Shown here: piece after piece, positions 35,118-45,596 of the stretch
Layout: the number at the start of each line of letters is the position of its first letter
How positions within the stretch are numbered: position 1 is the first letter of the stretch
NCBI GenBank assembly: GCA_002310995.1
Contig: DBYV01000044.1
Span: forward strand, 25,635-85,677
DNA length: 60,043 nucleotides
Origin: a bacterium UBP6_UBA1177
Lineage (GTDB): Bacteria; UBP6; UBA1177
Direction of reading: 5' to 3'
Notes under the pieces: generated by a model
Database searches by the model: none
What the model saw: only the letters and a program-made list of their open reading frames with translations
Told to the model about the DNA's origin: nothing
Made by a program: the position numbers and the translations under genes

Positions 35118-35963
35118 TCACAAAACAAGTTCAGGATTACTCAACAGATTTTCAATCAGCGGTTTATAAATAGCATTGTCTGCTGTTATTGTAATAGAAC
35201 AGACTTTGTTTCCTGCATCCTTTGACGATGCTCCGCAGTGGTAAATTTTTTCATTTTCAGTGCCGAAATCAAGAATGATGTATCGATCATGCAAAATGCC
35301 GTTTGTTTCTTTTGCTTCAGCATAAATCTGCTGATAAGCAAGATCAGCTTCGACAACTTTTCCATTTAAAAAGAGAAAATCCTTTTTTATTTCGTTGTTG
35401 CTGAAGTCTTCAATAATTTTAATAACATCGGTTTTTGTAACCATACTATCTTCAATTCCTTGAATCTTTTCGGACAGCAAATCCTGTCTGCTTTGCAGAA
35501 GTTTAAGTTCCTGATACGGAATCAGCTGGGCGTTATGCCTGACATAATGCGCGATTTCGACAAAAACATTGATAATCTGAATACTCGCCGCAATAGCTCT
35601 CGGAGTGTGTAAAACGGATGTAAGCATTGTTAATCCATGTTCGCTGTAAACAGTAGGGTTGTTGCTTCGACCACCTTTAATGCCCTTTGTCTGCATCGGT
35701 ATTCCAATTTGGAATAGCGATATTTCCTGATCAGTAGGTGTAAAACAGAAATTTTCTGGAAATCTTTCAATATTTCTGTTTTTTGCTTTATTCAGATTTC
35801 CAGTTGTAACACCGAAATATGCAGCAATATCTCTGTCTAACATAACACGTATTCCGCGAATCTCGTAAATCTGTGATTTCACTTTGTTTTTATCTATTGA
35901 CTCAAATAACTCCAGCTCGTTTTTCGAGCTAAAATTTTCATGTTCCGGCAAATTATTTTCCAT
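35118..35963 (-). CDS. ORF6N (KilA-N-like) domain protein, probably carrying an internal in-frame deletion
   Basis: IYEIRGIRVMLDRDIA...NIERFPENFCF...YSEHG; C-terminal HDRYIILD...CGASSKDAG. Confidence 0.8.
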   Translation of the reverse strand: MENNLPEHENFSSKNELELFESIDKNKVKSQIYEIRGIRVMLDRDIAAYFGVTTGNLNKAKNRNIERFPENFCFTPTDQEISLFQIGIPMQTKGIKGGRSNNPTVYSEHGLTMLTSVLHTPRAIAASIQIINVFVEIAHYVRHNAQLIPYQELKLLQSRQDLLSEKIQGIEDSMVTKTDVIKIIEDFSNNEIKKDFLFLNGKVVEADLAYQQIYAEAKETNGILHDRYIILDFGTENEKIYHCGASSKDAGNKVCSITITADNAIYKPLIENLLSNPELVL

Positions 35964-36445: not shown

Positions 36446-37372
36446 ATGAATTGTTTGGCAGATAGCATATTCAGCTGTTTTAAAAATCAGCCTGAATTTA
36501 CATTGAAATCAGCTTATGAACAGTATTCAGACAAACCAAAAGAAACTGTCAGAGCTAGAATTTATGATAATTTAGGTGTTAAATTTGAGCGCGTTGCAAA
36601 AGGCCTTTATCGCACGATACAAGGAGAAGAAACCTGTGTCGTTATTGAGGGCGACGGACGAGATTTGTCTATGTTTAAAGATAAATCTATTGATTGTATT
36701 TTGACAGATCATCCATGGTTGGATTTGAAATCAAATAAAGGCGGAGACAGAGCTTTCGCGGAATACGAATGCTTTGAATATACACTTAAAGATTTTGAAG
36801 AAAAAAGCAGAATCTTAAAAGATGGTTGTTTTCTTGTTGAAATACTTCCTGCTGAAAATGAAAATAATTACAAGTACTTATACAAAATCAAAGAATATGC
36901 TGAAAAAGCAGGATTGTTTTATTATGCTAAAGTAACATGGAAAAAAGGTGACTTTGTCAGCAATACTGGTAGAAAAGCAAAGAACTCGCAGGATGTAATG
37001 TTCTTTTCCAAAGGTAAAGCTAGAAATATGCGGTTGGATGTAAAGAAAACTCAGAAATTAGGATATGATTGCTATATGAGCGGAACTTTGAAGATGTTGC
37101 CTACAATGTTTGATATTCCGCCAGTTTCCAAAAAGGATAAAATACATCAAAGCGAATTGCCTCTGACACTATGTGAAGAAATTTTGCGATATATTACTTA
37201 TCAAGGAGAGATAGTACTTGATTCTTTTGCTGGGAGCGGAGTTGTCGGAGAAGCCGCTTTGAATTTGAAGAGAAATTGCATTTTAATAGAAATTGCTAAG
37301 GAAAATATCAAAAAAATACAAAAAAGATTTTCGGAAAATATAAATTTCAGGGAAGATTTAGCGTTTTTATAA
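36446..37372 (+). CDS. Site-specific DNA methyltransferase (N6/N4, beta class) with N-terminal wHTH-like extension
   Basis: Motif IV variant ILTDHPW precedes motif I VLDSFAGSG; HQSELP. Confidence 0.85.
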   Translation: MNCLADSIFSCFKNQPEFTLKSAYEQYSDKPKETVRARIYDNLGVKFERVAKGLYRTIQGEETCVVIEGDGRDLSMFKDKSIDCILTDHPWLDLKSNKGGDRAFAEYECFEYTLKDFEEKSRILKDGCFLVEILPAENENNYKYLYKIKEYAEKAGLFYYAKVTWKKGDFVSNTGRKAKNSQDVMFFSKGKARNMRLDVKKTQKLGYDCYMSGTLKMLPTMFDIPPVSKKDKIHQSELPLTLCEEILRYITYQGEIVLDSFAGSGVVGEAALNLKRNCILIEIAKENIKKIQKRFSENINFREDLAFL

Positions 37373-37382
37373 AGGTGACAAA

Positions 37383-38138
37383 ATGAAAAAAATGACCCAA
37401 GCCGAAGCAGTAGTGCAAACATTAGAACGCTTAGGTGGAATTGCAACTTTAGGACAACTGAATCAGGAAGTTTTTTGTATTGAAGATTGTGAATGGAAAA
37501 CGAAAACGCCGTTTGCTTCAATAAGAAGAATTGTCCAAACAGATAATCGAATTTATAAAATTAAACCAGGACTTTGGGCATTGAAAACATATCGAAAACA
37601 GCTTGAACAACGCGGAATAATTACAGAAAATGAATTAAATCAAAACTCAACAGAAGTGCAGGAATTCAATCATTCATACTATCAGGGTTTGTTACTTTCA
37701 ATAGGAAATATTAAGGGATTGGGAACTTATGCACCGAATCAAGACAAAAATAAAAGTTTTGCTAACGGAAAAATAGATGATTTGCGTTCCATTCAATCAA
37801 TTCCTGCTTTTTCTTACGAGCAGCTTGTAAAAAGAAGTTCTACAATTGATGTTATCTGGTTTAATGAAAGAACAATGCCAGATTCTTTTTTTGAGGTTGA
37901 ACATTCAACGGATATTACGAATTCACTGCAAAAATATAATGATTTGCAGGATTTTCATACTAAGATGTATATCGTGGCAGATAAAAGAAGAGAGGAGGAA
38001 TTCTGGAACAAATTTGCTTATGCTTCTTTTGAGAAATTGAAAAGTGAAAATCGTGTGAAATTTTTAAGTTATGGAGAGTTGGACGATCAATATCAACAAG
38101 CTGTTAAACTTCAGTCTATAAATACTGTTATATTATGA
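37383..38138 (+). CDS. Putative PD-(D/E)xK-type nuclease with N-terminal wHTH (restriction-like)
   Basis: KTKTPFASIRRIVQ HTH-like region; IDVIW...FFEVEHS acidic active-site-like motif; sits among methyltransferase genes. Confidence 0.55.
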   Translation: MKKMTQAEAVVQTLERLGGIATLGQLNQEVFCIEDCEWKTKTPFASIRRIVQTDNRIYKIKPGLWALKTYRKQLEQRGIITENELNQNSTEVQEFNHSYYQGLLLSIGNIKGLGTYAPNQDKNKSFANGKIDDLRSIQSIPAFSYEQLVKRSSTIDVIWFNERTMPDSFFEVEHSTDITNSLQKYNDLQDFHTKMYIVADKRREEEFWNKFAYASFEKLKSENRVKFLSYGELDDQYQQAVKLQSINTVIL

Positions 38139-38590
38139 TTTCCTGCAAATTTTTTACTCATTCAACGGAATTTCTTTTGTGGGCGAGAAAAAGTAAGAAA
38201 GTATCGCATTATTATAATTATGAGTTGATGAAAGAAATCAACGGCGGAACGCAGATGCGGGATTTATGGACTCTTCCTGCTATTGCAAGATGGGAAAAAT
38301 TGTGCGGAAAGCATCCGACACAAAAGCCGTTGCCGTTGCTTGCTCGTATAATTCTTGCTTCAACGCATGAAAACGAATGGATTTTAGACCCGTTTACAGG
38401 CTCAAGCACAACAGGAATCGCGGCAAGCCTGCTTGGTCGTAAATTTGTAGGAATCGACAAGGAAAAAGAATATGTCGAACTCTCAAAAAGGCGCAGAATC
38501 GAGATCGAAGATCCTGCTAAAAGAGAGGAGTATCGCAACAGAATCGCACGATATAACAATCAACCTTTGTTAGAAATCCAAGAAATATAA
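38135..38590 (+). pseudogene. 3' half of a DpnA-type (beta class) methyltransferase
   Basis: ISCKFFTHSTE, GKHPTQKP, ILDPFTGSSTTG present; the N-terminal DPPY half is missing. Confidence 0.8.
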
Positions 38591-38670
38591 TAAAACTGCC
38601 GAAGATTTAGTTCTAAATTCTGAGCAAAAGACGACATATTGCGTTTGTATCAAATTTTTTCCACAACATC

Positions 38671-38698
38671 TTGACTTTTTCTTAAGATTATGTAAACT
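38671..38698 (+). promoter_or_regulatory. Sigma70-like promoter of the AbiTii operon
   Basis: TTGACT-N16-TAAACT. Confidence 0.55.
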
Positions 38699-38778
38699 AA
38701 CCGTAATTTAATCCATTGGAGGTGGGCATTGGAATTGAAGGTTAGTAGAGGTGTAGGATTGATTGATGGAGGCGAAAA

Positions 38779-39669
38779 ATGAGTAGCATAGTTTTGGAAC
38801 TCCAAAGAGAGGTGATAAGGGAAGGCTGCGATGTTTTAAATCTTCTAAGAAAAGCACATGTTATTGCTGCAAAACTCAACTTGGAAAAATTCGATAAGTG
38901 GGTTTTGTCAGAGTTAAATGGCTATAAAAACAAAGATTCCATACCAGAATATCGTTCTATAAACGGATCTTTAAAGGGATGGAATCCTTATCATGGTTGG
39001 CTTACGGTTACGTTGTTAGATAAAAGTTTGGAAAAAGTGCTTTGTACAAAAAAAGAAGGAGAATCTCTTGGGGCTTTAATTGAACTTGAAAAAAAATCTG
39101 ACGGCTTTTTTTTGATTTATTTCAATGCCGAATTGAACTCGATAGTAAATTCTTTACGTGAATTCCCTCTACCAACGCGATACTCGTTGCATTGTAGTTC
39201 ACATCAAATAAAATCAATAGTCGAACATGTGAAGAATACTATATTGGAATGGACAATTAGACTTGAAACGGAAGGAATATTGGGGGAAGAAATGCAATTT
39301 AATTCTGAAGAAAAAGAGTCAGCAAAACGGATTACTCAGACGATAAATATTTATGGTAGTGCAAATGTTATCAATGGTGATGCCCCAAACTCTGCAATTG
39401 TTGCTGGAAACGAAAATACAGTCACATATACTTCAAAAGTGCTGAATGCTGTTTCCGAAATTGAATCGTCCTTGAATAACGAAGATATTTCATCCGAAGA
39501 TAAAGAAACAGCAATTGAAATGATCGCAGACATCAAGGAAAAAGTATCGCAGGAGAAAAAGTCGAGTATTTTGAGATCTGCATTTATAGGTTTGTTAGAT
39601 TTCGTAAGTGGAGTAGGCGCCAGTCTTACTGCCGCGCTAATTCAATCGAAAATACAGGGATTGTTCTGA
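38779..39669 (+). CDS. AbiTii-domain protein
   Basis: IVLELQ...LLRKAHVIAAKL...WVLSELNGY...PEYRSI...NPYHGW resembles the AbiTii domain; hydrophobic C-terminal helix. Confidence 0.75.
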   Translation: MSSIVLELQREVIREGCDVLNLLRKAHVIAAKLNLEKFDKWVLSELNGYKNKDSIPEYRSINGSLKGWNPYHGWLTVTLLDKSLEKVLCTKKEGESLGALIELEKKSDGFFLIYFNAELNSIVNSLREFPLPTRYSLHCSSHQIKSIVEHVKNTILEWTIRLETEGILGEEMQFNSEEKESAKRITQTINIYGSANVINGDAPNSAIVAGNENTVTYTSKVLNAVSEIESSLNNEDISSEDKETAIEMIADIKEKVSQEKKSSILRSAFIGLLDFVSGVGASLTAALIQSKIQGLF

Positions 39670-39691
39670 GATATTACAGAGGTGTACTGCT

Positions 39692-40624
39692 ATGGCACGA
39701 AAGAAAGTTGAAACAATAGTCAAAGATAAAATAAAACCTTTTTTACTTAAAGACAAGGACAGTGACTTTTTGGATCAGTTATCTCGGCAATATTCTTATA
39801 GATTGCTTGTAAACAGCATTGATGAGGCTACAAAATATCTTGAATATGATGAGAATGGGCAAGTAATCGAAGCGTCAATACAACGATTCTTAAAAAAAAT
39901 CGATAGCATCGCTCATAATAAATCTCTTCCGCTAATTGAGCAAAAGATTGTTCATATAGATAATAAGGGAAAAAAATATATTATGGAGTGGGACTCGCAA
40001 GAAGCTTGTGTTTTGTTACAGGCTTGTGTCAAGGGATTGAAGTCATTAAGATGGTCAAACGAAAGAATAGTAAAAGAATTTCTAGAGGAAACTTTGACCG
40101 AGACGAGAAATGTAGAGTGGTCTACATGGTTCAAAAAAATTAAAAAATTTAATAATAAGATTAAGAAGTCGATAAAAAACGATAATAGAACTATCAAGCA
40201 ATCCGGAACGATTTTACCAGAAGGACTTTTTGTGGAACTGCCACATAATTTTGGTTCTATTTGTAAACAAATCAATGCAAGTTACGAAAATCATCTTTAC
40301 GATTGCACGGCAGTAATGATGCGCCATTTACTAGAAATTTTGCTAGTTTTATCTTATCAAAAAGCTAACATTGAGAATGAAATAATGGCCAGTGATGGAA
40401 AACATCATGTTCCGCTTGACTCTATGATAAAAAATGCAGTTAATAATTCAAAATTAGCTCTCTCGTTAAGCACAAAAAACGACATGAGACATTTTAAAGA
40501 TTTGGGTAATTATTCTGCACATAAAATTTGGTATAGCTGCACTAAAGGAGATTTAGAACCTCATATACTTAAATATCGAGCTATTATTGAAGAACTCTTT
40601 TATAAATCTGGGATTAAAAAATAA
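39692..40624 (+). CDS. Unknown N-terminal domain + DUF4145/HEPN-like C-terminal domain
   Basis: QINASYENHLYDCTAVMMRHLLE...LGNYSAH is typical of DUF4145. Confidence 0.65.
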   Translation: MARKKVETIVKDKIKPFLLKDKDSDFLDQLSRQYSYRLLVNSIDEATKYLEYDENGQVIEASIQRFLKKIDSIAHNKSLPLIEQKIVHIDNKGKKYIMEWDSQEACVLLQACVKGLKSLRWSNERIVKEFLEETLTETRNVEWSTWFKKIKKFNNKIKKSIKNDNRTIKQSGTILPEGLFVELPHNFGSICKQINASYENHLYDCTAVMMRHLLEILLVLSYQKANIENEIMASDGKHHVPLDSMIKNAVNNSKLALSLSTKNDMRHFKDLGNYSAHKIWYSCTKGDLEPHILKYRAIIEELFYKSGIKK

Positions 40625-40650
40625 GTTCTGGAACAAACCCAACAATCCCA

Positions 40651-40750
40651 CTCATTGAAATCAAATTCTGCGAAAGTCGAGTCCTTGAAGTTGAGCAATA
40701 AACACTTGAATTTATTTGGATATCCGTTTAAGGTCGAAATTTTTGACCTT
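40651..40750. repeat. About 100-bp degenerate direct repeat, left copy (decayed AlbA_2 mini-ORF plus palindrome)
   Basis: Ungapped alignment to 42731-42830 gives 73/100 identities by manual count. Confidence 0.85.
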
Positions 40751-40780
40751 AGACGAAGACCTATTTTTTTCTGATTTCGC

Positions 40781-40860: not shown

Positions 40861-40985
40861 TAAGGATTGCAAATCCGCAGACAAAAATTCCAAAATAATC
40901 TTAAAATAAAAAACAAAAAATAATTTGACTTTCTTGATAAATACATAAATTTTGCTGAGATTGTTTGGAAACGGAGCCCAACCCG

Positions 40986-41099
40986 ATGACCCCACTCAAT
41001 AAACTCAAATCCGGCGAGAGCCGAACCCTTGAATTTAAGCGGGAACTGCCGCAGAATGCGGGAAAGAGGGGGAACGGCGATAATTTGGAGGAAATATAA
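40986..41099 (+). pseudogene. 37-aa mini-ORF encoding an AlbA_2 N-terminal fragment
   Basis: MTPLNKLKSGESRTLEFKRELPQNA...; the stop abuts the ATG at 41100. Confidence 0.7.
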
Positions 41100-42725
41100 A
41101 TGAATCTCGATATCAATCAAAAGTTGGACGAACTTCTTTCGATGAAATATGAAACTGAGACCGTTGAATTTAAAGAAGCTAAAGAGACTTTTGCTTTTGA
41201 TGATCTCGGAAAATATTTTTCAGCTTTGAGCAATGAAGCGAACCTTCACAATGAAAAATATGCATGGCTCGTTTTTGGTGTTGAAGACAAAAAACACAAT
41301 ATTGTCGGGACAAATTACAAAAATGATGACAAGTCTTTGCTGGCTCTGAAAGAGGAAATGGGAAAGCAGACTACAGGAAATTTAACTTTTGTCGAAATAT
41401 ATACTTGCCTTAGAAAAGCCAAAAATAACGAGGAAAAACGAGTTCTTGTTTTCCAAATTCCGGCTGCTCCGTGCGGAATGCCGGTTGCATTCAAAAGAAT
41501 GTATTACGGGCGTGACGGCGAGGCTCTTGTCGGGCTGAGTATCGAAAAAATCGAGAGGATCCGCGCCCAGAATGTTACGAATGACTGGAGTGCGCAGATC
41601 ATTCCAAACGCTACGTTCGAGCATCTTTCAAAAGAGGCGATTTCGCTTGCGCGGAAAATGTATGCCGAAAAGAATCCTCATCTTGCTTCTGATATTGAGC
41701 GTTGGAGCGATTCGACTTTTTTGAATAATGCACGGCTTACACGCGAAGGCAAGATCACCAATACGACGATCCTGCTTTTGGGAAAGCCAGAATCGGCAGA
41801 TTTGATTATTCCGGCTATCAGTCAAATTACCTGGATTCTGAAAGACCGTGACGGCATGGTAAGGGATTATGAACATTTTTACTGCCCGCTCATTGTTTCG
41901 GCAGAGAAAGTTCAGGCAAAAATACGAAATCTAACATCCCGTTACATGACCGGCGATTCGATTTTTCCGAAAGAAACTTTGCAGTACGATCCTTACATTA
42001 TCCGCGAGGCGTTGAACAACGCTATCGCTCATCAGGATTATTCAAAAGCGGGAAGAATCACCGTTCAGGAGCACGAAGACGACTATCTGATTTTCTGCAA
42101 CTGCGGCGATTTTATTCCGGGAAGCATAAAAAATGTTTTGAAAGCTGAATATTCTGCGAGCAATTACCGCAATCCGTTTCTTGCGACTGCAATGGTCAAT
42201 CTGAACATGATCGACACTGTCGGAAGCGGTATCCTGAAAATGTTCCTTGCTCAGAAAAAGAGATGTTTTCCTTTGCCCGATTACGATTTTTCAAATCACG
42301 AAGTACGCATGAAACTTTATGGCAAAATCCTGGATATAAACTATACCAGGCGGCTCCTGAATGAAGATTTGCCGCTTTCTGAAGTCTTCGAATTGGATAG
42401 AAAACAGAAAGAAGAATTCATTTCGCATAGAAACGATCCTGTAAAAGAACAAGTAAAGGAACAAGTAAATGTCCAAGAAAATGTCCAAGAAAATGTCCAA
42501 GAAAAAGGAGTAAATGTCCAAGAAAATGTCCAAGAAAAAACTCGAGAAGAAATGATACTAAATCTTTTGCAGAACAATAATACAATCTCGATACGAGAAC
42601 TTGCAGAGCAATTAAATATGACTGCAAAAACGATTCAGCGAGATTTAGATAAATTAAAGTCACAAAACCTTATCCGCCGCATAGGTCCGAACAAAGGCGG
42701 TCACTGGGAGGTGATTAAAAAATGA
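41100..42725 (+). CDS. Schlafen/AlbA_2 domain + HATPase_c_4 (RecG C-terminal-like) + HTH protein
   Basis: ETVEFKEA...SALSNEA...LVFGVED; IREALNNAIAHQDY; RNPFLA; GSG; C-terminal DeoR-like HTH ending GGHWEV. Confidence 0.88.
   Translation: MNLDINQKLDELLSMKYETETVEFKEAKETFAFDDLGKYFSALSNEANLHNEKYAWLVFGVEDKKHNIVGTNYKNDDKSLLALKEEMGKQTTGNLTFVEIYTCLRKAKNNEEKRVLVFQIPAAPCGMPVAFKRMYYGRDGEALVGLSIEKIERIRAQNVTNDWSAQIIPNATFEHLSKEAISLARKMYAEKNPHLASDIERWSDSTFLNNARLTREGKITNTTILLLGKPESADLIIPAISQITWILKDRDGMVRDYEHFYCPLIVSAEKVQAKIRNLTSRYMTGDSIFPKETLQYDPYIIREALNNAIAHQDYSKAGRITVQEHEDDYLIFCNCGDFIPGSIKNVLKAEYSASNYRNPFLATAMVNLNMIDTVGSGILKMFLAQKKRCFPLPDYDFSNHEVRMKLYGKILDINYTRRLLNEDLPLSEVFELDRKQKEEFISHRNDPVKEQVKEQVNVQENVQENVQEKGVNVQENVQEKTREEMILNLLQNNNTISIRELAEQLNMTAKTIQRDLDKLKSQNLIRRIGPNKGGHWEVIKK
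42441..42540 (+). repeat. Intragenic 12-nt tandem repeat (VQEN/VKEQ)
   Basis: gtccaagaaaat units encoding VKEQVKEQVNVQENVQENVQEKGVNVQENVQEK. Confidence 0.95.
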
Positions 42726-42781
42726 CCTTACTCGATGAAATCAAATCCGGCGAAAGCCAAACTCTCGAATTTAAACAGTAA
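42722..42781 (+). pseudogene. 19-aa mini-ORF encoding an AlbA_2 N-terminal fragment
   Basis: MTLLDEIKSGESQTLEFKQ*; ATGA overlap with the upstream stop. Confidence 0.75.
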
Positions 42782-42830
42782 CCATCTGAATTTATTTGAA
42801 AATCCGTTCGAGGTGCAATTTTTGCACCTC
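42731..42830. repeat. About 100-bp degenerate direct repeat, right copy
   Basis: Colinear with 40651-40750; contains the palindrome CGAGGTGCAA-T-TTTGCACCTCG. Confidence 0.85.
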
Positions 42831-44498: not shown

Positions 44499-44552
44499 TA
44501 AAAGTTGTTCTTGTTTTTGGGGGTCGTTTTGAAAGGACACAGCATTATCGTT

Positions 44553-44852
44553 ATGCCTTCGACGCAGAAAATTCTTGAGCAAATGGGAGAGCAGATAAAA
44601 CTTGCCCGCCTCAGAAGAAAACTCAGCGCGGAACTTGTGGCGGAACGTGCCGGAGTAAGCCGTGTCACGCTTTGGAACATCGAAAAAGGCTCGCCGTCAG
44701 TTGCGATGGGAGCTTATGCGGCAGTCCTTCATGCAATCGGCGGAATGGACAGAGACCTGCTTTTGATTGCGAAAGACGACGAACTCGGGCGGAAACTTCA
44801 GGATCTCGGGCTTCTGCCGAAAAAACGGGCTCCGAAAAAGGAGGCTGAATAA
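44553..44852 (+). CDS. XRE-family HTH protein (HipB-like antitoxin)
   Basis: GEQIKLARLRRKLSAELVAERAGVSRVTLWNIEKG; start uncertain (TTG 44529 also possible). Confidence 0.85.
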   Translation: MPSTQKILEQMGEQIKLARLRRKLSAELVAERAGVSRVTLWNIEKGSPSVAMGAYAAVLHAIGGMDRDLLLIAKDDELGRKLQDLGLLPKKRAPKKEAE

Positions 44853-45596
44853 TGGCAGCGGGAGAGAAAAAAATATATGTTTACGAAAACTGGTCATCGG
44901 AAATTCCGCGCGAACTCGGTATTTTGTATGTCAGCAATGTCCGAGGAACGGAGACTTTTTCCTTCGAATACAACGAAGAATATCTGAAAAATCCTGTTTC
45001 GTGCAGTATAGATCCGGATCTGGAGCTTTTTCAGGGCAGACAGTTCACGTATCAAAAACCTAATTTCGGTATTTTTTCCGATTCCGTTCCGGACAGATGG
45101 GGTCGCACTCTCATGGATCGTCGTGAAAGATTCCGTGCAAAGGAAGAAGGGCGTAAACCTCGGACTCTGCTTACAAGCGATTATAAAAAACGGTGCAAAA
45201 CCAAAAGAGGATCTTACCGAACTCTGGAAAAGAATCGTTTTCAATATGGCGGTTTCCAACACAGACGATCACCTCAGAAACCACGGTTTTATCCTTTCCA
45301 AAAACGGCTGGAGGCTTTCTCCTGCTTACGATATAAACCCGAATCCTGCAGGAGAGGGACTTGCGCTGAATGTCAGCGAAAACGATAATTCAATCGATAT
45401 AAATCTCGCGCTGAGCACTCACAGATTCTATCAGCTTGAAAAAGATAAAGCTGCAAAAATCGCTTCGGAAATATGTCTTGCCGTCAGCAGAAACTGGGAG
45501 AAAATTGCTTCAAAACACGGAATCAGCCGCAGCATGATTGAACTTATGCGACCTGCGTTCAACGCAGCGGTTAAGAATAAGATATCGACTACGTAA
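44852..45596 (+). pseudogene. hipA: HipA-family kinase toxin, internally deleted and frameshifted
   Basis: N-terminal FSFEY...FGIFSDSVPDRWGR in one frame; C-terminal NTDDHLRNHG...LSPAYD in another; they meet near gattat at 45179-45184 with the central part absent. Confidence 0.85.

What the first reader, a model, noticed from the sequence alone, without database searches (positions are those of the whole stretch)
38671..40624. Candidate undescribed two-gene anti-phage system: AbiTii protein + unknown-domain/HEPN-like protein
Seen: two intact co-oriented AT-rich genes 22 bp apart with their own promoter, between RM remnants and a Schlafen/AlbA_2 gene. Gene 1 has an AbiTii-like N-terminus and a hydrophobic C-terminal helix (FIGLLDFVSGVGASLTAALI). 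Gene 2 has about 170 aa I cannot assign, fused to a DUF4145-like domain with GNYSAH. Established: AbiTii derives from the lactococcal AbiT abortive-infection system, and DUF4145 belongs to the HEPN superfamily, which includes many defence RNases. Inference: a sensor/effector abortive-infection pair. They remain intact while neighbours decay, which suggests selection.
Basis: partly seen in the sequence, partly recalled or inferred. Interest (0 to 1): 0.72.

Follow-up and report, generated by a model that had tools for sequence, protein, structure and literature searches.

The report
Two stacked abortive-infection defence genes
Two neighbouring genes in a rumen spirochaete's defence island are a fused, single-protein version of the lactococcal AbiT phage-defence system and a predicted HEPN-type RNase, and because each usually occurs without the other they look like two separate modules sharing a promoter, not a new two-gene system.

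Summary
Genes at 38779-39669 (296 aa) and 39692-40624 (310 aa) are intact, co-oriented, 22 bp apart and AT-rich. They lie between restriction-modification (RM) genes and an AlbA_2 gene.

- **Gene 1** is an AbiTii domain fused to an AbiTi-like C-terminal domain, so both parts of lactococcal AbiT sit in one chain. This is a widespread architecture.
- **Gene 2** is an unassigned helical N-domain plus a DUF4145/DUF5677-type HEPN-like domain with an invariant K269-x7-H277. Shorter relatives have R-x7-H.

The "obligate pair" reading is not supported.
- Of 23 full-length gene-2 loci in reference genomes, only one near relative carries gene 1.
- Of 80 metagenomic gene-1 loci, only one has a gene-2-like domain nearby.
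- In the window's own genus, two genomes have gene 2 and no gene 1 anywhere, and one has gene 1 without gene 2.
- Both families usually sit at the 3' end of RM operons.

The pair does persist in five diverged versions within one rumen clade and moves as a cassette. Its alleles are reassorted 2x2 across the spacer, and a DUF4062 gene can replace gene 2.

Verdict: two stacked, separable abortive-infection-type modules. Each is a member or variant of a known kind. Interest is modest.

The parts
38635..40676 (+). Extent of the shared gene 1 + gene 2 cassette (promoter, leader, both genes, ~50 bp tail)
   Evidence: DNA homology to the pair-bearing loci starts at 38635-38645 and ends at 40672-40780. 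This holds for L001, L139 and L147, whose flanks are unrelated.
38671..38698 (+). Sigma-70-like promoter TTGACT-16-TAAACT
   Evidence: Found by the consensus scan, though such sites are not enriched over shuffles. TTGAyT and the TGTAAA/TGTGTAA box are conserved in 7 of 8 cassettes.
38700..38778 (+). Conserved ~80-nt leader with GGAGG sites; function unknown
   Evidence: Aligned across 7 cassettes. It forms only a weak hairpin without covariation, and has no Rfam match.
38779..39669 (+). Gene 1, 296 aa: fused AbiTii-AbiTi ('single-chain AbiT')
   Evidence: ORF. At least 453 homologue clusters of about the same length. AlphaFold model has pLDDT 81.
38785..39336 (+). AbiTii alpha+beta domain (residues 3-186), proposed sensor/regulatory part
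   Evidence: Pfam PF18864 E 2.8e-43 and PADLOC AbiTii E 1e-44. The domain has 2742 representative clusters in 1.84 billion proteins.
39337..39657 (+). AbiTi-like C-terminal region (residues 187-293): Asn/Gly-rich linker with low-confidence structure (191-215) plus a four-helix domain, proposed toxic effector
   Evidence: PADLOC AbiTi matches positions 3-111 of 114 at E 0.0023 for this protein. It matches 38 of 40 family members, best 4.8e-11. PDC-M14B C-terminus matches at E 5.4e-8. Helices are at 211-233, 239-257, 262-279 and 282-295.
39586..39642 (+). Gly/Ala-rich hydrophobic helix IGLLDFVSGVGASLTAALI (residues 270-288)
   Evidence: Kyte-Doolittle 19-residue mean is 1.78; the family mean is 1.47. 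The same kind of tail occurs in distant AbiTii proteins.
39670..39691 (+). 22-bp spacer with RBS AGAGGTG; recombination junction between the two modules
   Evidence: Sequence. DNA identity to L001 jumps from ~75% to ~99% here. Homology to L152 ends at 39670. The spacers of the five pairs are conserved.
39692..40624 (+). Gene 2, 310 aa: unassigned helical N-domain + DUF4145/DUF5677-type HEPN-like domain
   Evidence: ORF. At least 357 homologue clusters of 307-321 aa. All-helical AlphaFold model, pLDDT 87.
39692..40186 (+). N-domain (residues 1-165), eight helices, no family match; proposed sensor
   Evidence: No Pfam, NCBIfam, PHROGs or PADLOC hit. Found only in the ~310-aa family.
40187..40621 (+). 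C-domain (residues 166-310), DUF4145/DUF5677-like
   Evidence: 40 of 44 family members hit DUF4145 and 39 of 44 hit DUF5677. The same domain sits on ~245-aa proteins with other N-termini in many phyla.
40496..40522 (+). K269-D-L-G-N-Y-S-A-H277: predicted active-site motif (K-x7-H)
   Evidence: K269, G272, N273, S275, A276 and H277 are invariant in 44 sequences. Shorter relatives have R at the K position. The defence protein RAZR has catalytic R146 and H154, that is R-x7-H (PMC13017515).
36446..38590 (+). Upstream RM genes: full N6_N4 MTase (36446-37372), REase-like ORF (37383-38138), truncated MTase (38135-38590)
   Evidence: Domain matches. The truncated MTase clusters with the MTases of MTase-helicase-gene 2 operons in L012, L013 and L016.
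41100..42725 (+). Downstream AlbA_2 / HATPase_c_4 / wHTH gene (context only)
   Evidence: Domain matches. The syntenic locus L143 has gene 1, gene 2 and an AlbA_2 gene 54% identical to this one.

Best explanation
These are two autonomous single-gene abortive-infection-type modules. They lie one behind the other at the 3' end of an RM cluster and are probably transcribed from one promoter.

**Module 1 (gene 1)** is a single-chain AbiT.
- The N-terminal AbiTii domain would act as the phage-sensing or regulatory part (inferred).
- The AbiTi-like four-helix C-domain, with its Gly/Ala-rich hydrophobic tail, would act as the toxic effector that stops growth of the infected cell (inferred).

**Module 2 (gene 2)** is built like the validated DUF4145 defence proteins RAZR, BxaP and Ishtar.
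- A family-specific helical N-domain would recognise a trigger (inferred).
- A DUF4145-type HEPN-like domain (K269-x7-H277) would then cut RNA and arrest translation (inferred).

**Shown here:** the domain make-up, the family sizes, the separability of the two genes, and the RM and defence-island context.

**Inferred:** defence function, triggers, RNase activity and co-transcription.
For: **Domains.**
- Gene 1 matches AbiTii at E 2.8e-43. The AbiTi model matches 38 of 40 family members.
- Gene 2's family hits DUF4145 in 40 of 44 members, with an invariant K-x7-H motif that is R-x7-H in shorter relatives.

**Separability.**
- Only 1 of 23 full-length gene-2 loci in GTDB (reference) genomes carries gene 1.
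- Only 1 of 80 metagenomic gene-1 loci has a gene-2-type domain nearby.
- In a census of 15 genomes of the window's genus, gene 2 is in 4, gene 1 in 3 and both in 2. G409 and G415 (97-99% complete) have an intact gene 2 and no gene 1 anywhere. G405 has gene 1 without gene 2.
- At an orthologous site (upstream Lcl_C gene 83-87% identical), L001 and L147 carry the pair, while L149 carries gene 1 followed by an Abi_2 gene.
- L152 shares the window's upstream genes and gene 1 at 82% DNA identity. Homology ends at the gene 1 stop codon, and a DUF4062 gene replaces gene 2.

**No sign of partner co-evolution.**
- Gene 1 groups {window, L139} at 84% and {L001, L147} at 91%.
- Gene 2 groups {window, L001} at 98% and {L139, L147} at 99%.
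- This is a complete 2x2 reassortment.

**Context.**
- Both families usually sit just after type I or helicase-type RM genes, often with gaps under 20 bp.
- Their other neighbours are varied defence genes: TIR, HamA, KwaB-like, GmrSD and M78+DUF4411.

**Literature.**
- AbiTi of Coprococcus catus is toxic in E. coli, and AbiTii does not neutralise it (PMC3985639).
- RAZR is a single-gene DUF4145 RNase that acts by abortive infection (PMC13017515).
- BxaP and Ishtar are further single-gene DUF4145 defence proteins.

**Selection.** Both genes appear to be under purifying selection (dN/dS 0.13-0.29 in three of the five comparisons, 0.61-0.71 in the other two).
Against: - The pair is kept in five diverged versions (gene 1 61-91% and gene 2 61-99% identical among them), always gene 1 then gene 2 with a 22-33 bp spacer.
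- It moves between unrelated flanks as one cassette. Pure chance adjacency does not predict this.
- AbiTii domains are known to be fused to HEPN domains of the DUF4145-like clade (c2405 family; PMC3710099). An AbiTii-HEPN partnership therefore has precedent.
- No experiment, transcript data or solved structure supports any functional step.
- Gene 2 has K where characterised DUF4145 and HEPN enzymes have the catalytic R.
- Neither AlphaFold model matched a solved fold.
Confidence: 0.62

Rival explanations
1. A clade-specific cooperative two-gene system. In these rumen spirochaetes the AbiT-type protein and the DUF4145-type protein work together. For example, the AbiTii sensor could activate the HEPN-like RNase in trans, or the two could broaden each other's trigger range. 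Alleles would be interchangeable because the interface is conserved.
For: - Five diverged pair versions have conserved order, spacer and RBS.
- The cassette, with common ends at 38635 and 40676, sits in different flanks: after HsdM-HsdS, after an Lcl_C gene, and after a truncated MTase.
- About 5 of the 11 gene-1 lineages at or above 58% identity carry gene 2, against 1 of 80 further away.
- AbiTii-NTD fusions to DUF4145-like-clade HEPN domains are described in PMC3710099.
Against: - Each gene persists intact without the other in the same genus and at the same site.
- Gene 1 carries its own effector domain.
- The slot after gene 1 also holds a DUF4062 gene, an Abi_2 gene or an unknown 207-aa gene.
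- The 2x2 allele reassortment gives no sign of partner co-evolution.
- None of the 150 best AbiTii-domain representatives, and none of 5 gammaproteobacterial AbiTii proteins, carries a gene-2-type C-domain in cis.
Confidence: 0.2
2. Gene 2 is an accessory of restriction-modification systems, and gene 1 is an unrelated insertion. Gene 2 would be a back-up RNase kept in check by, or guarding, an RM complex, in the manner of the anticodon nuclease PrrC with EcoprrI. In this window it has been left behind as the RM operon was rearranged.
For: - At least 11 of 22 full-length gene-2 loci have gene 2 directly after HsdS, HsdR, type IIG, C5-MTase or MTase+ResIII genes, with gaps of about 0-25 bp or overlaps.
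- The window's truncated MTase is homologous to the MTases of MTase-ResIII-gene 2 operons.
- HEPN-RM coupling is described for DUF4145 in PMC3710099 and PMC3632139.
Against: - Gene 2 also occurs with no RM gene nearby: L002/G415 after an Lcl_C gene, L146 after Sel1, L005 after a deformylase gene and L014 after tyrS.
- The validated DUF4145 proteins RAZR, BxaP and Ishtar act on their own.
- Gene-1 homologues occupy the same post-RM slot, so that position does not single out gene 2.
Confidence: 0.12
3. Neither gene is a defence gene. They are selfish or housekeeping passengers of variable islands whose domain similarities are misleading.
For: - No member of either exact family has been tested.
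- Gene 2's own Pfam score is below threshold.
- Neither model matched a solved fold.
Against: - Gene 1 has strong AbiTii and AbiTi profile matches.
- Both families are consistently embedded in RM operons and defence islands.
- The active-site-like motif of gene 2 is conserved.
Confidence: 0.04

Closest known systems
AbiT of Lactococcus lactis (abiTi + abiTii, two-gene abortive infection system)
   Same: Gene 1 contains both parts. The AbiTii domain matches the Pfam and PADLOC models at E ~1e-43. An AbiTi-like domain matches almost the full PADLOC AbiTi model (positions 3-111 of 114), at family level in 38 of 40 members.
   Different: - The two parts are fused in one 296-aa chain, in the order AbiTii then AbiTi. 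In Lactococcus they are two genes, which I recall lie in the order abiTi-abiTii (recalled; Bouchard 2002 could not be opened).
- The AbiTi match of this particular protein is weak (E 0.0023).
- The host is a rumen spirochaete.
- No phenotype is known.
RAZR / PD-T7-4 (zinc finger + DUF4145 HEPN RNase; PMC13017515)
   Same: A single polypeptide with a variable N-terminal domain plus a C-terminal DUF4145-type helical domain. The basic-x7-His motif has the same spacing as RAZR's R146/H154.
   Different: - Gene 2 has no zinc finger.
- It has no PADLOC PD-T7-4 hit at E <= 0.1.
- It has K instead of R at the catalytic position.
- Its N-domain is an unrelated ~165-aa helical domain.
BxaP (BREX-associated) and Ishtar (anti-plasmid) DUF4145 proteins (PMC10799925; bioRxiv 10.64898/2026.07.06.735840)
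   Same: Single-gene defence proteins that combine a DUF4145 HEPN-like domain with a family-specific second domain. They are often found next to other defence systems.
   Different: In those proteins the DUF4145 domain is N-terminal and the partner domains differ (HEAT-like; beta-rich). No sequence similarity to them was tested or found here.
AbiTii-NTD fused to c2405 or Ymh HEPN domains (Anantharaman et al. 2013, PMC3710099)
   Same: The same AbiTii N-terminal domain is linked with a HEPN domain of the DUF4145-like clade. The c2405 family keeps the His and lacks the Arg, as gene 2 does.
   Different: - Here the HEPN-like domain is on a separate, separable protein with its own N-domain.
- Gene 1 carries an AbiTi-like tail instead.
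- I found no AbiTii protein with a gene-2-type domain in cis.
PADLOC candidate system PDC-M14 (protein B)
   Same: The C-terminal ~100 residues of gene 1 match the C-terminal part of the PDC-M14B models (E 5.4e-8; 39 of 40 family members).
   Different: Only the tail matches, and the N-terminal 150 positions of PDC-M14B do not. Gene 2 shows no match to any PDC-M14 model. No paper on PDC-M14 was found.

Membership tests
AbiT (L. lactis type; PADLOC AbiT) | AbiTii domain present | tested here: met
   Pfam PF18864 scores 148.8 bits against a cut-off of 27.6, over residues 3-186. PADLOC AbiTii gives E 1e-44.
AbiT (L. lactis type; PADLOC AbiT) | AbiTi component present | tested here: met
   PADLOC AbiTi covers positions 3-111 of 114 at E 0.0023 for this protein. 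It hits 38 of 40 family members, best 4.8e-11. The match is weak for the window's own copy and solid for the family.
AbiT (L. lactis type; PADLOC AbiT) | Two separate genes, abiTi and abiTii | tested here: not met
   Both parts lie in one 296-aa ORF, AbiTii first. There is no separate abiTi-like gene beside it.
AbiT (L. lactis type; PADLOC AbiT) | Abortive-infection phenotype against phage | not testable with these tools
   Needs cloning and phage challenge.
DUF4145 / HEPN superfamily | Match to Pfam PF13643 above the gathering score | tested here: inconclusive
   The window's protein has no DUF4145 hit at E <= 0.1; it gives only DUF5677 at E 0.072. Of its 44 aligned relatives, 40 hit DUF4145 (best 1.7e-5) and 39 hit DUF5677 (best 4.7e-6).
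DUF4145 / HEPN superfamily | Catalytic Arg and His (R-x7-H in RAZR; Rx4-6H in classical HEPN) | tested here: inconclusive
   H277 is invariant. The Arg position is an invariant Lys (K269) in the 310-aa family and Arg in most ~245-aa relatives.
DUF4145 / HEPN superfamily | All-alpha helical core | tested here: met
   The AlphaFold model is all-helical, with pLDDT 87. However, Foldseek on the whole two-domain model gave no significant PDB match.
DUF4145 / HEPN superfamily | RNase activity | not testable with these tools
   Needs a biochemical assay.
RAZR / PD-T7-4 | N-terminal Cys4 zinc-ribbon domain and match to PD-T7-4 models | tested here: not met
   No PADLOC PD-T7-4 hit at E <= 0.1. The N-domain is helical, and no Cys is invariant or nearly invariant within it.
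PDC-M14 (PADLOC candidate two-gene system) | Both PDC-M14A and PDC-M14B present | tested here: not met
   Only the C-terminal part of PDC-M14B matches gene 1. Neither gene gives a PDC-M14A hit.
   - 1 of 23 gene-2 loci and 1 of 80 gene-1 loci show the partner.
- In the same genus, gene 2 alone is in G409 and G415, and gene 1 alone is in G405.
- Co-occurrence is limited to five cassette versions in one clade.

The most novel reading that the evidence does not exclude
In this rumen spirochaete clade, the single-chain AbiT and the DUF4145-type protein have become a cooperative two-gene module. Its sensor and RNase alleles are freely reassorted by recombination in the spacer, a 'mix-and-match' abortive-infection cassette. 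This would be the trans equivalent of the known AbiTii-HEPN fusions.
Probability: 0.18. Interest if true: 0.55.

Novelty: new variant of a known kind. Interest (0 to 1): 0.3.

Why it matters
- **AbiT.** AbiT has been known since 2002, and its mechanism is still listed as unknown in the 2026 review (PMC13064643). The fused ~300-aa AbiTii-AbiTi architecture is the commonest one among the nearest AbiTii-domain relatives listed. It offers a simpler one-protein model for structure and mechanism work. It also suggests that annotation rules requiring two AbiT genes could miss these proteins.
- **Gene 2.** It adds another family (at least 357 clusters) to the growing set of 'variable domain + DUF4145' single-gene defence candidates. 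Its Lys-for-Arg change at the predicted active site is worth testing.
- **Method.** The case shows how tight adjacency in one genome can suggest a two-gene system that a wider census does not support.

Tried and rejected
- **Fold search.** Foldseek of both AlphaFold models against the PDB gave nothing at E < 0.3.
- **Sequence search of solved structures.** Profile searches of the PDB sequences with both family alignments gave only chance hits.
- **Other libraries.** NCBIfam and PHROGs gave nothing useful.
- **Fusion ('Rosetta stone') test.** I looked for a gene-2-type C-domain fused to an AbiTii domain. There were none among the 150 best AbiTii representatives or in 5 gammaproteobacterial hits; one of those carried a Ymh-like tail instead.
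- **Flanking repeats.** I looked for direct or inverted repeats around the cassette, like those earlier readers noted for other cassettes in this window. None was convincing. The 61-nt repeat at 40636/40980 belongs to the AlbA_2 fragments.
- **RNA element in the leader.** There was no Rfam hit and no covariation.
- **Literature.** The Bouchard 2002 AbiT paper is not held, and 'PDC-M14' returned no paper.
- **Readings rejected.** A toxin-antitoxin reading of the pair was rejected, because each gene persists alone. A PDC-M14 reading was rejected, because only the tail of protein B matches.
Full report
**1. Observation**

The window holds two + strand ORFs at 38779-39669 (296 aa) and 39692-40624 (310 aa).
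- They are separated by 22 bp carrying an AGAGGTG ribosome-binding site.
- The stretch from 35 to 41 kb has GC 0.32-0.37, against 0.38-0.51 elsewhere in the window.
- A TTGACT-16-TAAACT site lies at 38671-38698. Such sites are not enriched over shuffles. However, this one and the ~80-nt leader behind it are conserved in seven of eight related cassettes.
- Upstream lie a complete N6_N4 methyltransferase (MTase) (36446-37372), a type II restriction endonuclease (REase)-like ORF (37383-38138) and an N-terminally truncated methyltransferase (38135-38590).
- Downstream lies an AlbA_2/HATPase_c_4/HTH gene (41100-42725).
- The genome is a 2.3-Mb, 67-contig assembly. Its nearest named relative is a rumen Spirochaetales metagenome-assembled genome (MAG).

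**2. Gene 1**

- Residues 3-186 are an AbiTii domain (Pfam E 2.8e-43; PADLOC E 1e-44).
- Residues 187-293 match almost the whole PADLOC AbiTi model (positions 3-111 of 114). The match is weak for this copy (E 0.0023), but 38 of 40 family members match, best 4.8e-11.
- The same residues match the C-terminal part of the PDC-M14B models.
- The AlphaFold model (pLDDT 81) shows three parts: an alpha+beta N-domain, a low-confidence Asn/Gly-rich linker (191-215), and a four-helix C-domain.
- The C-domain ends in a Gly/Ala-rich hydrophobic helix with a Kyte-Doolittle mean of 1.78, borderline for a membrane segment.

Gene 1 is therefore both components of lactococcal AbiT in one chain.

This architecture is common.
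- The AbiTii domain has 2742 representative clusters.
- Most of the 150 best are ~295-300 aa with the same kind of tail. A minority are ~210-220 aa like the lactococcal protein.
- Gammaproteobacterial examples have the same build.

The literature adds two points.
- AbiTi from Coprococcus catus is toxic in E. coli, and AbiTii does not neutralise it (PMC3985639).
- A 2026 review predicts an endoribonuclease-like fold for AbiTi and still lists the AbiT mechanism as unknown (PMC13064643).

**3. Gene 2**

- The family has at least 357 clusters of 307-321 aa and is highly conserved.
- The first ~165 residues match no library.
- The window's own C-terminus only grazes DUF5677 (E 0.072). Among 44 relatives, 40 hit DUF4145 and 39 hit DUF5677.
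- NCBI names two homologues DUF4145 proteins.
- The motif F-K269-D-L-G-N-Y-S-A-H277-K is invariant.
- The same C-domain sits on ~245-aa proteins of cyanobacteria, acidobacteria, proteobacteria and Bacteroidota. These have other N-termini, and the Lys position is mostly Arg.
- The resulting basic-x7-His spacing equals that of R146 and H154, the catalytic residues of RAZR. RAZR is a validated single-gene DUF4145 RNase that acts by abortive infection (PMC13017515).
- BxaP and Ishtar are further validated single-gene DUF4145 proteins.
- The AlphaFold model is all-helical (pLDDT 87). It found no solved relative.

**4. Are the two genes a system?**

*Distant relatives.*
- 57 loci were fetched from one-per-species genomes through gene 2, of which 23 are full length. 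Only L001 contains gene-1 domains, by tblastn and by profile HMMs.
- 80 metagenomic loci were fetched through gene 1. Only L068 has a gene-2-type domain, on a 245-aa DUF4145 protein.

*Usual context.*
- Gene-2 homologues usually follow HsdS, HsdR, type IIG, C5-methylase or MTase+ResIII genes, with tiny gaps.
- Gene-1 homologues follow HsdM-HsdS(-HsdR) or helicase-type RM genes (type I restriction-modification subunits).
- Gene-1 homologues are then followed by varied defence genes: TIR, HamA, KwaB-like, GmrSD and M78+DUF4411.

*Whole-genome census of the window's genus (15 genomes).*
- Gene 2 is in four genomes, gene 1 in three, and both (adjacent) in two.
- G409 and G415, which are 97-99% complete, have an intact gene 2 and no gene 1 anywhere.
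- G405 has gene 1 and no gene 2.

**5. The near clade**

Look-ups of the closest homologues give five distinct versions of the pair:
- the window;
- L001 (G410);
- L139-142, arranged HsdM-HsdS-gene 1-gene 2;
- L143-145, arranged Sel1 gene-gene 1-gene 2-AlbA_2, with ORF6N upstream, syntenic with the window;
- L147/148, arranged Lcl_C-gene 1-gene 2.

The order is always gene 1 then gene 2, with 22-33 bp between.

DNA homology between the window and L001, L139 or L147 is confined to about 38635-40676, with unrelated flanks. The two genes therefore travel as a cassette.

The same clade also shows separability:
- L149 (G405): gene 1 followed by an opposite-strand Abi_2 gene, behind an Lcl_C gene 83-87% identical to that of L001 and L147;
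- L151: a type ISP RM gene, gene 1 and an unknown 207-aa gene;
- L152: the window's own upstream genes and gene 1 at 82% DNA identity, with homology stopping exactly at the gene 1 stop codon and a DUF4062 gene in place of gene 2;
- L146 and L002 (G415): gene 2 alone.

The alleles are reassorted.
- Gene 1 groups {window, L139} at 84% and {L001, L147} at 91%.
- Gene 2 groups {window, L001} at 98% and {L139, L147} at 99%.
- The identity jump between window and L001 lies in the spacer.

dN/dS values are 0.13-0.29 in three of the five comparisons and 0.61-0.71 in the other two.

**6. Interpretation**

The simplest account is two autonomous abortive-infection-type modules that occupy the same 'post-RM' slot of defence islands. 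In one rumen lineage they became linked behind one promoter and now spread and recombine as a cassette.
- Gene 1 brings its own effector, so it does not need gene 2.
- Gene 2 resembles stand-alone DUF4145 defence proteins and lives without gene 1.

I give this 0.62.

A cooperative pair restricted to this clade remains possible at 0.20.
- The adjacency has survived about 40% sequence divergence.
- AbiTii domains are known to be fused to HEPN domains of the DUF4145-like clade that, like gene 2, keep the His and lack the Arg (PMC3710099).
- I found no such fusion involving the gene-2-type domain.

A third reading, at 0.12, takes gene 2 as an RM accessory of the PrrC kind, left behind by RM rearrangement.

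**7. Comparison and novelty**

- Gene 1 works like AbiT and contains both of its parts. It fails the 'two genes' feature, so it is a fused variant and a widespread one.
- Gene 2 is a DUF4145-type protein with a new N-domain and a Lys at the Arg position.
- Gene 2 is not RAZR: it has no zinc finger and no PD-T7-4 hit.
- The pair is not PDC-M14.

The pair is not a new system.

An earlier agent's note on another genome, apparently the L001 genome, reached the same 'two stacked modules' reading. I saw it after forming mine, and it is not independent evidence.

**8. Limits**

- No multimer prediction was possible, and no per-domain fold search.
- Context was examined for only a sample of the homologues.

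Noticed in passing
window 38779-40624 versus L001, L139, L147: There is a complete 2x2 reassortment of two gene-1 alleles and two gene-2 alleles among four cassettes. The breakpoint lies in the 22-33 bp spacer: DNA identity to L001 jumps from ~75% to ~99% at about 39700.
   Followed up: yes
L152:1-2887 and L153, versus window 37815-39670: The window's REase-like 3' end, truncated MTase and gene 1 recur at 82% DNA identity. Homology stops exactly at the gene 1 stop codon, and a 325-aa DUF4062 protein gene sits where gene 2 is in the window.
   Followed up: yes
window 38700-38778: An ~80-nt leader upstream of gene 1 is conserved in 7 of 8 cassettes. It contains GGAGG plus a short ATG/TTG mini-ORF, which in the window ends in an ATGA overlap with the gene 1 start. 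There is only a weak hairpin, no covariation and no Rfam match.
   Followed up: partly
window 38135-38590: The 'truncated' methyltransferase (SAM-binding half only) starts with an ATGA overlap on the REase-like ORF. It recurs as a 143-aa ORF in L152 and L153, so it may be a maintained form rather than fresh decay. It is homologous to the MTases of MTase-ResIII-gene 2 operons (L012, L013, L016).
   Followed up: partly
window 40636-40696 and 40980-41040: A 61-nt direct repeat (75% identity) lies upstream of the AlbA_2 gene. The second copy reads as the start of an AlbA_2 protein (…SGESRTLEFK…). Related pieces occur at 42739-42821 and in L001.
   Followed up: no
window 44505-45596: A hipBA-like module: an HTH gene (44505-44852), then hipA split into two overlapping frames, with Couple_hipA in 44852-45388 and HipA_C in 45123-45596. 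hipA is therefore probably frameshifted.
   Followed up: partly
window 35118-35963 (- strand): An ORF6N-domain protein gives a strong match to the PADLOC candidate PDC-S05 (E 7.7e-66). ORF6N genes also lie upstream of the cassette in L139 and L143.
   Followed up: no
L059:2226-5204: Two tandem AbiTii-AbiTi fusion genes (298 aa each) lie behind HsdM-HsdS and are followed by a TIR-domain gene.
   Followed up: no
L158 (gammaproteobacterial genome G150): An AbiTii-domain protein has a tail that looks like the Ymh/TIGR02391 HEPN family (…LHPLLQPVVAKLYADGHYRQAILDAY…). This fits the AbiTii-Ymh fusions described in 2013. It was read by eye only.
   Followed up: no
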